Assembly (NCBI RefSeq): GCF_003334405.1
Contig: NZ_QOWM01000013.1
Reading direction: 5' to 3' (one strand)
Origin: Escherichia coli
GTDB taxonomy: Bacteria > Pseudomonadota > Gammaproteobacteria > Enterobacterales > Enterobacteriaceae
Length of the DNA: 64,000 bases
The notes under the pieces are model-generated. The model saw only the letters and a list, made by a program, of their open reading frames with translations, did not search any database and was not told the DNA's origin. The position numbers and the translations under genes were made by a program. Numbering within the stretch: the stretch's first letter is position 1; each line of letters opens with the position of its first letter. Positions 61,612-62,280 of this stretch are shown here, one piece after another.

Positions 61612-62086
61612 AAAGTCCTGTCCAGAAAGAAGTCGGCCTCGCAAAAATGAATAAACCCAGTTTCTCTTGCGCAACAGGTGGAGAAGTCGAATACGCAGTA
61701 TGTAAAAAATGAGGCAACAGATTCACTGGGGAGGTCGCGAGGAGGCGCAATTCTACAAAATTGCGCATTTCACTACCAGTCTGGAGTCAGCCCGGATATG
61801 AACTGCAACTATTGCAAATAAAGAAATTAAGCTGGAAGGCATCGCGCAATGAGGAAGATTGCCGGGTGCTGACAGTAAAAAGCAATCGTAGAATCAGCGG
61901 CAAGCCGGAAAGGTTCCGGTGAGGCGCAATGTTGCGGGGGCTTTATCCCTGGTGGCATTGGTTGCTGGAGAGAGAAAACCCCCGCACGTTGCAGGTATGC
62001 ACCTGACAACACCACGGGGGCTAATCTTGACTCTAGACCACTCAAGAATAGCCGCGAAACGTTGTCATTACAACACAGGCGGCTAT

Positions 62087-62194
62087 ATGACGTTCGCAGA
62101 GCTGGGCATGGCCTTCTGGCATGATTTAGCGGCTCCGGTCATTGCTGGCATTCTTGCCAGTATGATCGTGAACTGGCTGAACAAGCGGAAGTAA
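62087..62194 (+). CDS. ldrD: Ldr-family type I toxin peptide LdrD
   Basis: 35-aa ORF MTFAELGMAFWHDLAAPVIAGILASMIVNWLNKRK. Confidence 0.8.
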   Translation: MTFAELGMAFWHDLAAPVIAGILASMIVNWLNKRK

Positions 62195-62244
62195 CGTGTC
62201 ATGCGGGCGTCAGGCTGCCGTAATGGCAATTTGCGCCCGGACCA

Positions 62245-62276
62245 GGCCGCAGGGGGGAAACTCTGCGGCCTTTTTC
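62245..62276 (+). terminator. Rho-independent terminator downstream of ldrD
   Basis: ggccgcag / loop gggggaaact / ctgcggcc followed by TTTTT. Confidence 0.6.
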
Positions 62277-62280
62277 GTTC

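What the first reader, a model, noticed from the sequence alone, without database searches (positions are those of the whole stretch)
61700..62280. ldrD type I toxin locus between yhjV and bcsG
A 35-aa Ldr-family peptide ORF (62087..62194) with its own terminator sits in a roughly 600-bp gap. The cognate Rdl antisense RNA is expected upstream on the opposite strand, but I could not place its boundaries from sequence alone. The long ORFs that the six-frame track shows here are probably artefacts of this leader region.
Basis: partly seen in the sequence, partly recalled or inferred. Interest (0 to 1): 0.4.

Follow-up and report, generated by a model that had tools for sequence, protein, structure and literature searches.

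The report
Known ldrD/rdlD toxin–antisense RNA locus

Summary
Window 61000-63000 is base-for-base E. coli K-12 MG1655. The 35-codon ORF at 62087..62194 (+) is ldrD: Pfam Ldr_toxin E = 6.9e-27, identical to PDB 5LBJ. It has its own intrinsic terminator (62244..62271 plus a T-run). It lies in the 669-bp gap between yhjV (start 61611, −) and bcsG (stop 62281, −).

The antisense gene rdlD is at 61973..62038 (−), not at 61850..61950. Rfam RF01813 scores it at 87 bits against a threshold of 50, and RefSeq annotates 61975..62038. Its promoter (−35 TTGTAA 62073..62068, −10 TATTCT 62050..62045) lies between rdlD and the ldrD start codon. Its terminator is the RdlD stem-loop itself.

Similarity to LDR-A/B/C starts at the ldrD −10 box (TAGAAT, 61889..61894) and runs to the terminator.

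The architecture, both promoters and a closed mRNA fold are conserved in 40 copies from six enterobacterial genera.

The 91-aa ORF is an in-frame upstream extension of ldrD and is not conserved as such. It does contain the best candidate start (TTG 62027) for the published but unproven leader ORF "ldrX". My comparison gives mixed support for ldrX.

Nothing here is new: already known, low interest.

The parts
61885..62280 (+). LDR-D repeat unit: the stretch clearly similar to LDR-A/B/C of K-12
   Evidence: Alignment A1. Near-identity starts at the −10 box and runs through the leader, CDS, 3' UTR and terminator. Upstream of about 61885 the similarity is weak.
61889..61894 (+). ldrD promoter −10 hexamer, TAGAAT (the −35 is poorly defined)
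   Evidence: TAGAAT, TAGTAT or TAATAT sits at a fixed distance from the conserved leader in all 40 copies from six genera. The consensus scan did not call it because there is no good −35. The assignment as a promoter is inferred.
61901..62280 (+). ldrD mRNA, about 380 nt; the 5' end is inferred to ±2 nt
   Evidence: It runs from the conserved −10 plus 6-8 nt to the terminator T-run. The predicted fold is −182.3 kcal/mol, z = −7.9 against shuffles. That fold is kept in 40 copies: 88.5% of cells paired, against 37-47% when partners are slid.
61923..61929 (+). 5' element GGCGCAA, predicted to pair with 62231..62237 in the 3' UTR and so close the mRNA (analogous to the 'fbi' pairing of hok mRNA)
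   Evidence: Found in the MFE fold and the RNAalifold consensus (pairs 27-32 with 354-359, 40/40 paired). The pairs are invariant, so there is no covariation proof.
61973..62038 (-). rdlD gene: the RdlD antisense RNA antitoxin, 66 nt
   Evidence: Rfam RF01813: 87 bits (gathering 50), E = 1.6e-18, model positions 1-66 of 66. RefSeq ncRNA rdlD b4454 maps to window 61975..62038. Fold −29.5 kcal/mol, z = −4.0.
61973..62022 (-). RdlD stem-loop and U-tract, its intrinsic terminator (stem-loop 61979..62022, UUUUCU 61973..61978)
   Evidence: Fold. The inner part was called as a terminator-like site (61995..61981, then GGTTTTCTCT).
62045..62073 (-). rdlD promoter: −35 TTGTAA (62073..62068), 17-nt spacer, −10 TATTCT (62050..62045), 6 nt before the RdlD 5' end
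   Evidence: Read from the sequence. It matches 8 of 12 consensus positions, so it falls below the threshold of the scan. The pattern TTGYMA-N17-TATYCT occurs once next to every rdl copy in the fetched loci.
62016..62029 (+). Candidate start of the hypothetical leader ORF 'ldrX': GGGGG (62016..62020), 6 nt, TTG (62027..62029). It lies inside the RdlD-complementary stretch
   Evidence: The TTG is present in 30 of 40 copies, and its ORF always reaches the ldr ATG. In LDR-D it is in frame with ldrD. All Klebsiella copies lack it. Whether it is translated was not tested.
62048..62086 (+). Hairpin AUAGCCGC / GCGGCUAU, which contains the ldrD Shine-Dalgarno-like AGGCGG (62077..62082)
   Evidence: RNAalifold consensus, pairs 164-171 with 198-205, kept in 35-40 of 40 copies. 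In the single-sequence MFE fold the same SD pairs with the 3' UTR instead.
62087..62194 (+). ldrD CDS: 35-aa toxin
   Evidence: RefSeq ldrD b4453.
62195..62243 (+). Conserved 3' UTR, predicted to pair with the leader, the SD and the start codon of ldrD
   Evidence: pair list; helices 6, 7 and 8 are 96.6%, 91.4% and 85.1% paired in 40 copies, and helices 6 and 8 each have 2 pairs with a change on both sides.
62244..62280 (+). ldrD intrinsic terminator: hairpin 62244..62271, then TTTTTCGTT
   Evidence: Conserved in all 40 copies (pairs 367-375 with 386-394).

Best explanation
This is the chromosomal ldrD/rdlD type I toxin-antitoxin cassette (LDR-D) of E. coli K-12.

Shown here:
- A roughly 380-nt ldrD mRNA is set out by a conserved −10 box (61889..61894) and a terminator (62244..62280). 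It encodes the 35-aa Ldr toxin (62087..62194).
- A 66-nt RNA gene, rdlD (61973..62038, −), is encoded antisense to the middle of the 186-nt ldrD leader. Its own conserved promoter (62045..62073, −) lies between rdlD and the ldrD start.
- RdlD is fully complementary to the leader but does not cover the ldrD ribosome-binding site or ATG, which lie 48 nt away.

From the literature, for this same sequence:
- LdrD overproduction is toxic, and RdlD prevents LdrD synthesis at the level of translation.
- The duplex is an RNase III substrate.

Inferred mechanism (my estimate about 0.5): the ldrD ribosome-binding site is locked in secondary structure, either the local hairpin 62048..62086 or pairing with the 3' UTR. 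It is opened only by ribosomes that start upstream at the RdlD-masked site (GGGGG-N6-TTG, 62016..62029) and read through to the ldrD ATG. This is the mok/hok-like 'ldrX' coupling model. RdlD binding blocks that upstream initiation and triggers RNase III cleavage, so no toxin is made while the unstable antisense RNA is present.

Confidence in the identity of the locus is about 0.99. The figure below is for identity plus general mode (antisense block of translation).
For: Identity:
- Exact match to NC_000913.3.
- RefSeq annotation of ldrD and rdlD.
- Pfam PF13940, E = 6.9e-27.
- PDB 5LBJ is identical.
- Rfam rdlD at 87 bits.
- Similarity to LDR-A/B/C.

Architecture conserved across genera:
- rdl lies 46-51 nt upstream of the ldr ATG in 40 copies from Escherichia, Citrobacter, Salmonella, Klebsiella, Kluyvera and Pseudocitrobacter.
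- Both promoters are conserved.

Structure:
- The mRNA fold has z = −7.9.
- The fold is kept in 88.5% of cells, against 37-47% when partners are slid. 25 pairs have a change on both sides, against 17.5±2 in shuffles.
- The SD lies in a conserved hairpin.

Coupling model:
- The TTG with an upstream GGGGG lies inside the RdlD target in 30 of 40 copies.
- Its ORF always reaches the ldr ATG: 19 in frame, 7 ending in ATGA on the ATG, 4 stopping 17 nt later.

Literature:
- Toxicity and repression by RdlD, and the ldrX proposal of Gerdes and Wagner (PMC4147584; PMC8167048).
- A dsRNA peak of about 21 nt in the rdlD/ldrD overlap, and RNase III effects (PMC7373196).
Against: None against the identity.

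Against the ldrX coupling step:
- All 10 Klebsiella copies have CTC instead of the TTG. The change is compensated on the other arm of a hairpin (CUUGA/UCAAG becomes CUCGA/UCGAG, pair 143-160, UA 29, CG 9). Conservation of the TTG may therefore reflect RNA structure, or the 5' end of rdl.
- Two of the nine distinct Klebsiella leader sequences (the ten copies include one duplicate leader) have no canonical start in the RdlD target that reaches ldr.
- Two of the three frames are open across this 60-nt stretch anyway, so an open frame is weak evidence.
- In LDR-D the TTG frame is fused to ldrD rather than forming a separate ORF.
- Reviews state that the model is unconfirmed and the mechanism 'currently unknown' (PMC4147584, PMC8309996).
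- RNAalifold and the single-sequence MFE fold disagree on the SD's pairing partner.
Confidence: 0.9

Rival explanations
1. The locus is the same, but RdlD does not act through a leader ORF. Pairing with the leader stem-loop (61973..62038) causes RNase III cleavage and decay. Alternatively, it prevents a structural rearrangement or processing step (or a ribosome standby site) that is needed to expose the ldrD ribosome-binding site, as in tisB/istR-1, zorO/orzO and other type I systems.
For: The TTG is missing from all Klebsiella copies and the change is compensated within a hairpin. The mRNA is predicted to be closed by 5'-3' and SD-3'UTR pairing that is conserved in 40 copies, which implies that an activation step is needed. 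An RNase III-dependent dsRNA peak and altered RNA stability in rnc mutants are reported (PMC7373196). A 2021 review calls the mechanism 'currently unknown' (PMC8309996).
Against: In the rnc mutant the half-lives rose only slightly (PMC7373196). The SD-like GGGGG plus TTG sit exactly inside the RdlD target in 30 of 40 copies, and the ORF always reaches the ldr ATG. Seven of these end in the classic ATGA stop/start overlap.
Confidence: 0.35
2. The real product of LDR-D is a longer protein, the in-frame 55-, 65- or 91-aa ORF that ends at 62194 (starts at TTG 62027, ATG 61997 or GTG 61919). RdlD would block its start codon directly.
For: In LDR-D and in 18 other copies the upstream TTG frame is fused to ldr. 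ATG 61997 and TTG 62027 both lie inside the RdlD target.
Against: ATG 61997 and the long frame are not conserved. LDR-B and LDR-C have a stop codon in that frame (TAA after ...GAG AGG), and in LDR-A/B/C a 1-nt difference puts the upstream frame out of frame with ldr. Across copies the TTG frame is fused in 19, ends at ATGA in 7 and stops at +17 in 4, so the extension is not under selection as protein. The cloned 35-codon ldrD ORF alone arrests growth (PMC8406316). RefSeq, Pfam and PDB all define a 35-aa peptide.
Confidence: 0.05
3. It is a chance small ORF in an ordinary intergenic region, with no functional element.
For: The consensus promoter scan found no sites, and the terminator-like sites (2 found, 1.1±1.3 expected) are not enriched on their own.
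Against: Everything else argues against it: full-length Pfam and Rfam matches, curated annotation, presence in all 5,426 complete E. coli genomes, and conservation of the ORF, the antisense RNA, both promoters and the mRNA fold in six genera.
Confidence: 0.01

Closest known systems
ldrD/rdlD (LDR-D) of E. coli K-12 MG1655, genes b4453 and b4454 (Kawano et al. 2002, as cited in PMC4147584)
   Same: It is this locus. The sequence is identical, the flanking genes (yhjV, bcsG) are the same, and so are the 35-aa peptide and the antisense RNA.
   Different: Nothing differs. RefSeq annotates rdlD as 64 nt (window 61975..62038), while the Rfam model covers 66 nt (61973..62038).
LDR-A/B/C (ldrA-rdlA, ldrB-rdlB, ldrC-rdlC), the tandem copies between kdsA and chaA
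   Same: The layout is the same and the leader, rdl, 3' UTR and terminator are near-identical. rdl lies 47 nt from the ldr ATG.
   Different: The peptides are only 57% identical to LdrD. The RdlD loop and upper stem differ (61992..62000). The −10 is TAGTAT rather than TAGAAT. A 1-nt difference before the SD makes the upstream TTG ORF end in ATGA on the ldr ATG in A/B/C, whereas it is in frame with ldrD in LDR-D. Upstream of the −10 the sequences are barely alike.
hok/mok/sok of plasmid R1 and its chromosomal copies
   Same: Works like it, by inference. Shared features are a small membrane toxin, a stable and highly folded mRNA with a long leader, a short unstable antisense RNA that targets the leader rather than the toxin's ribosome-binding site, predicted 5'-3' closure of the mRNA, a proposed leader ORF (mok and ldrX) coupled to toxin translation, and RNase III cleavage of the duplex (PMC4147584, PMC8167048, PMC7373196).
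   Different: It is not a member of that family. The Rfam sok model scores only 24 bits against a gathering score of 59, and the peptide is Ldr (PF13940), not Hok. The leader ORF is not conserved in Klebsiella copies and is fused in frame in LDR-D. 3' processing of the ldrD mRNA has not been shown.
Fst/RNAI-RNAII (par of pAD1), the Fst/Ldr toxin superfamily
   Same: Reviews place Ldr and Fst in one toxin superfamily. Both are short transmembrane helices with a charged C-terminus that cause nucleoid condensation (PMC4147584, PMC8309996).
   Different: In the Fst system the antisense RNA pairs at direct repeats and at the 3' terminator region of convergent transcripts. Here the antisense RNA is fully overlapping and divergent within the 5' leader. 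No sequence comparison with Fst was run here.

Membership tests
Ldr/Rdl type I toxin-antitoxin (LDR repeat) | A peptide of about 35 aa belonging to the Ldr toxin family | tested here: met
   Pfam PF13940 Ldr_toxin, E = 6.9e-27, residues 1-35 on model 1-35 of 35. Identical to PDB 5lbj_A, LdrD. NCBIfam has no model that matches.
Ldr/Rdl type I toxin-antitoxin (LDR repeat) | [quoted passage not shown] | tested here: met
   Rfam RF01813 rdlD: 87 bits against a gathering score of 50, full length, at 61973..62038 (−).
Ldr/Rdl type I toxin-antitoxin (LDR repeat) | Rdl overlaps the 5' untranslated leader of the ldr mRNA, not its ribosome-binding site or start codon | tested here: met
   The RdlD 5' end is at 62038 and the ldrD ATG at 62087, a 48-nt gap. 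The gap is 46-51 nt in all 40 copies.
Ldr/Rdl type I toxin-antitoxin (LDR repeat) | Sequence similarity to the other long direct repeats (LDR-A/B/C) | tested here: met
   Alignment A1: near-identity from about 61885 to 62280.
Ldr/Rdl type I toxin-antitoxin (LDR repeat) | Separate promoters and terminators for the toxin mRNA and the antisense RNA | tested here: met
   Both terminator-like sites were found. The −10 of ldr is conserved in 40 of 40 copies. The rdl promoter pattern occurs once per rdl copy. The transcription start sites themselves were not measured here.
Ldr/Rdl type I toxin-antitoxin (LDR repeat) | The peptide is toxic when overproduced, and the antisense RNA prevents its synthesis | not testable with these tools
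   Reported for this exact locus in the literature (PMC4147584 citing Kawano 2002; PMC8406316).
hok/sok-type control (leader-ORF coupling) | A leader ORF whose start is masked by the antisense RNA and which overlaps the toxin start (mok-like 'ldrX') | tested here: inconclusive
   GGGGG-N6-TTG at 62016..62029 lies in the RdlD target, and its ORF reaches the ldr ATG in all 30 copies that have it. It is absent from all 10 Klebsiella copies, where the base change is compensated in a hairpin.
hok/sok-type control (leader-ORF coupling) | Fold-back pairing of the mRNA 5' and 3' ends that keeps the full-length mRNA inert | tested here: inconclusive
   Pairing of 61923..61929 with 62231..62237 is predicted and 40/40 conserved, but the pairs are invariant. 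SD/start-3'UTR helices are 85-97% paired with a few double changes. The structure was derived from one of the aligned sequences.
hok/sok-type control (leader-ORF coupling) | Sequence and structure membership in the sok/hok RNA family | tested here: not met
   The Rfam sok model RF01794 scores 24.2 bits (gathering 59) on 61936..62089 (+).

The most novel reading that the evidence does not exclude
The textbook 'ldrX' leader-ORF model may be wrong or incomplete in one of two ways. First, the upstream TTG may be conserved for RNA structure rather than as a start codon, since Klebsiella copies replace it with a compensated CTC. RdlD would then act through structure or RNase III. Second, in LDR-D-type copies, where the RdlD-masked TTG is in frame with ldrD, RdlD may directly control synthesis of a 55-aa N-terminally extended LdrD isoform. 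Either outcome would settle how RdlD works, a question the reviews still describe as open.
Probability: 0.3. Interest if true: 0.3.

Novelty: already known. Interest (0 to 1): 0.08.

Why it matters
For the genome scan, this finding can be closed as a correct identification of a curated, experimentally studied type I toxin-antitoxin locus, with exact coordinates now assigned to every part. The one open scientific point is old and modest. How RdlD blocks LdrD synthesis without covering its ribosome-binding site has never been demonstrated. The comparison of 40 copies made here identifies the mutations that would test the leader-ORF model.

Tried and rejected
- The sigma-70 consensus scan of 61500..62400 found no promoter. 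Both promoters fall below its 9-of-12 threshold, so I placed them by position relative to the RNA ends and by conservation.
- NCBIfam has no model that matches the peptide.
- The primary and review papers that define ldrX and the RNA ends are not in the held library: Kawano 2002, Gerdes and Wagner 2007, Kawano 2012 and Fozo 2008. The exact published coordinates of ldrX and of the ldrD 5' end could not be checked. The ldrX candidate named here is my own reading of the sequence.
- I considered ATG 61929 (25-aa ORF) as ldrX. I rejected it because its start lies outside the RdlD target, it ends 83 nt before the ldrD ATG, and LDR-C has a frameshift in it.
- I considered ATG 61997 as a start codon. 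It exists only in D-type copies.
- I considered the 72-aa minus-strand ORF 61827..62045. Its start lies upstream of the RdlD 5' end, it runs past the RdlD terminator, and the corresponding open frame varies from 48 to 142 codons between copies. I treat it as an artefact.
- Openness of the TTG frame is not a discriminating test, because two of the three frames are open across this stretch.
- The weak hit to the Rfam sok model (24 bits) is below threshold and was not used as evidence of membership.

Full report
**What is in the sequence.** Window 61000..63000 is an exact match to the reverse complement of E. coli K-12 MG1655, NC_000913.3. The conversion is window position = 3,762,174 − record position. 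RefSeq annotates four features there:
- bcsG, window 62281..63960 (−);
- ldrD b4453, window 62087..62194 (+);
- the ncRNA rdlD b4454, window 61975..62038 (−);
- yhjV, whose start is at window 61611 (−).

The intergenic gap is therefore 61612..62280, or 669 bp. ATG 62087 to TAA 62194 gives MTFAELGMAFWHDLAAPVIAGILASMIVNWLNKRK. This matches Pfam Ldr_toxin PF13940 end to end (E = 6.9e-27) and is identical to the solved LdrD peptide 5LBJ. A G+C-rich hairpin followed by a T-run (62244..62271, then TTTTTCGTTCT) follows the ORF. The stretch 61600..62300 is found in all 5,426 complete E. coli genomes, and 5,394 of them have at least 80% of it in one place. The median is four related places per genome, which corresponds to the four LDR copies.

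**Where rdlD is.**
- The Rfam rdlD model RF01813 matches 61973..62038 on the minus strand over its full length, at 87 bits against a curated threshold of 50 (E = 1.6e-18). This agrees with the RefSeq feature to within 2 nt.
- The RNA folds into a single long stem-loop followed by UUUUCU (−29.5 kcal/mol, z = −4.0). That stem-loop is its own intrinsic terminator, and its inner part was picked up by the terminator scan.
- Reading the minus strand upstream of the 5' end gives TTGTAA (62073..62068), 17 nt, TATTCT (62050..62045), 6 nt, then +1. This matches 8 of 12 consensus positions, below the cut-off of the promoter scan, which found nothing.
- The degenerate form TTGYMA-N17-TATYCT occurs exactly once next to every rdl copy in the loci I fetched from other genera.

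The rdlD promoter therefore lies between rdlD and the ldrD start codon.

- Aligned with LDR-A, B and C from the kdsA-chaA interval, LDR-D is nearly identical from about 61885 to 62280. This covers the −10 box, the whole leader, the 3' UTR and the terminator.
- The leader is better conserved than the coding region. The peptides are only 57% identical.
- Upstream of the −10 box the similarity is weak.
- The variable spots are the apical part of the RdlD stem-loop (about 61992..62000) and the loop at about 62031..62040.
- The −10 hexamer (TAGAAT in D, TAGTAT in A/B/C) is conserved in all 40 copies I collected, at a fixed distance from the leader. No good −35 is conserved.
- I infer an ldrD 5' end at about 61900-61902 and a transcript of about 380 nt. 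This 5' end is an inference from sequence, not a measurement.

**Relatives in other genera.** A scan of one genome per species with the Ldr peptides returned 30 loci. They come from Escherichia, Citrobacter, Salmonella enterica subsp. arizonae and diarizonae, the Klebsiella oxytoca group, Kluyvera and Pseudocitrobacter. Rfam finds rdl next to ldr in nearly all of them, often in tandem arrays of two or three units. This gave 40 distinct ldr/rdl units. In each, the rdl 5' end lies 46-51 nt upstream of the ldr ATG.

**How it most likely works.**

*Established in the literature for this locus.*
- Overproduced LdrD is toxic and causes nucleoid condensation.
- RdlD, about 60 nt, prevents LdrD synthesis.
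- RdlD overlaps the 5' UTR rather than the ribosome-binding site, so the mechanism 'was not immediately clear'.
- Gerdes and Wagner proposed a leader ORF, ldrX, whose translation is coupled to that of ldrD and is blocked by RdlD, as with mok and hok. [quoted passage not shown]
- A 2021 review still calls the mechanism 'currently unknown' (PMC8309996).
- An RNase III-dependent dsRNA peak of about 21 nt maps to the rdlD/ldrD overlap, and both RNAs are slightly stabilised in an rnc mutant (PMC7373196).
- Induced LdrD causes partial membrane depolarisation, ATP loss and antibiotic tolerance (PMC8406316).

*What the sequence adds: the mRNA fold.*
- The predicted ldrD mRNA is unusually structured (−182.3 kcal/mol, z = −7.9).
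- In the K-12 fold, the 5' element GGCGCAA (61923..61929) pairs with 62231..62237.
- The leader (62061..62071), the Shine-Dalgarno-like AGGCGG with its neighbours (62078..62084), and the start region (62088..62098) all pair with the 3' UTR.
- Mapped onto the 40-copy alignment, 88.5% of cells are paired, against 37-47% when partners are slid by 1-3 columns.
- 25 pairs show a change on both sides, against 17.5±2.0 in shuffles.
- The caveat stated by the tool applies: the structure comes from one of the aligned sequences.
- RNAalifold keeps the 5'-3' closure, which is 40/40 paired but invariant. It puts the SD in a local hairpin instead, AUAGCCGC 62048..62055 with GCGGCUAU 62079..62086.
- In either fold the ldrD ribosome-binding site is predicted to be sequestered. 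That fits a toxin mRNA that needs an activating event.

*What the sequence adds: the ldrX question.*
- Inside the RdlD-complementary stretch there is GGGGG (62016..62020), 6 nt, then TTG (62027..62029).
- In LDR-A/B/C this opens a 20-codon ORF that ends with TGA overlapping the ldr ATG (ATGA), the classic coupling arrangement.
- In LDR-D one extra base before the SD puts the same ORF in frame with ldrD.
- Across the 40 copies the TTG is present in 30. Its ORF reaches the ldr ATG in every one of them.
- Counting distinct leader sequences, the ORF is in frame with ldr in 19, ends at ATGA in 7 and stops 17 nt after the A of the ATG in 4.
- This pattern fits a model in which the passage of ribosomes matters and the peptide itself does not.

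*Counter-evidence on ldrX.*
- All ten Klebsiella copies have CTC in place of the TTG. The T-to-C change is matched by A-to-G on the other arm of the hairpin CUUGA...UCAAG (pair 143-160: UA 29, CG 9).
- Two of the nine distinct Klebsiella leader sequences (the ten copies include one duplicate leader) have no canonical start codon in the RdlD target whose ORF reaches ldr.
- Two of the three frames are open across this stretch in any case.

I rate the ldrX coupling model at about 0.5. The alternative, in which RdlD acts through RNase III cleavage or by blocking a structural activation or standby step, I rate at about 0.35. An extended LdrD protein as the real product I rate at about 0.05.

**The other long ORFs.**
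- The 91-aa ORF (61919..62194) is the in-frame extension just described. Its upstream part is not conserved: LDR-B and C have a TAA in that frame, and A/B/C are shifted relative to ldr.
- The 72-aa minus-strand ORF (61827..62045) starts upstream of the RdlD 5' end and runs past its terminator. The equivalent open frame varies from 48 to 142 codons among copies.
- Neither of these ORFs, nor the 125-aa ORF 61391..61768 (−) that overlaps the yhjV start, is annotated.

**Comparison with known systems and verdict.** This is ldrD/rdlD (LDR-D) itself. Every defining feature of the Ldr/Rdl family that can be tested by sequence is met. It works like hok/mok/sok in outline but is not a member of that family: the Rfam sok model scores 24 bits against a threshold of 59, and the toxin family is different. 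The finding is a correct re-identification of a known, curated locus. Novelty is 'already known' and interest is low. The only residue of novelty is the comparative evidence bearing on the unproven ldrX model.

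Noticed in passing
window 40188..40327 (+): A second type I toxin-antitoxin element lies in the window. The Rfam sok antitoxin model RF01794 scores 70.1 bits (gathering 59). It is presumably a chromosomal hok/sok copy; its flanks and ORF were not examined.
   Followed up: no
window 42026..42453 (−): Full-length match to the cspA thermoregulator (5' UTR plus mRNA), RF01766, at 500.8 bits.
   Followed up: no
window 53650..53726 (+) and 53820..53899 (−): A tRNA-Pro (anticodon CGG), followed by a match to naRNA4 (nucleoid-associated ncRNA, RF02564) at 69 bits.
   Followed up: partly
window 21315..21357 (+) and 56135..56177 (−): Two matches to the short ES036 (CssrF) sRNA family, RF02751, at 46 and 57 bits.
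   Followed up: no
window 61936..62089 (+): The ldrD leader gives a sub-threshold hit to the Rfam sok/hok-leader model (24.2 bits against 59, E = 0.0078). It could be chance, or a faint echo of the hok-like organisation.
   Followed up: partly
L004 (NZ_JABWSY010000055.1, 503 bp): A 503-bp contig labelled 'Bacillus sp. EB106-08-02-XG196', with 'cov_0.664319' in its record title, carries an E. coli-type ldr (97% identical to the query) and rdl (90 bits). This is almost certainly enterobacterial contamination of that assembly.
   Followed up: no
L015 and L017 (Klebsiella michiganensis, K. spallanzanii); L005, L006, L016, L020, L023, L027: ldr/rdl units occur as tandem arrays in other genera too: three units about 480 bp apart in the Klebsiella loci, and two units in several Escherichia, K. 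oxytoca and Pseudocitrobacter loci. Klebsiella copies also carry an insertion of about 8 nt in the leader hairpin loop (alignment columns 65-72).
   Followed up: partly
L024:1501-1605 (Pseudocitrobacter vendiensis): This ldr copy has a premature stop (TGG to TAG) after 30 codons, while its rdl is intact at 85 bits. It may be an inactivated toxin with a retained antitoxin.
   Followed up: no
L001 (NZ_CP032667.1, K-12 MG1655 re-sequenced): The PGAP annotation of this K-12 record lists ldrD but no rdlD feature. The locus_tag numbering skips RS00900 between yhjV (RS00895) and ldrD (RS00905). The curated NC_000913.3 record has rdlD. Automatic annotation evidently does not always list the antisense RNA.
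   Followed up: partly
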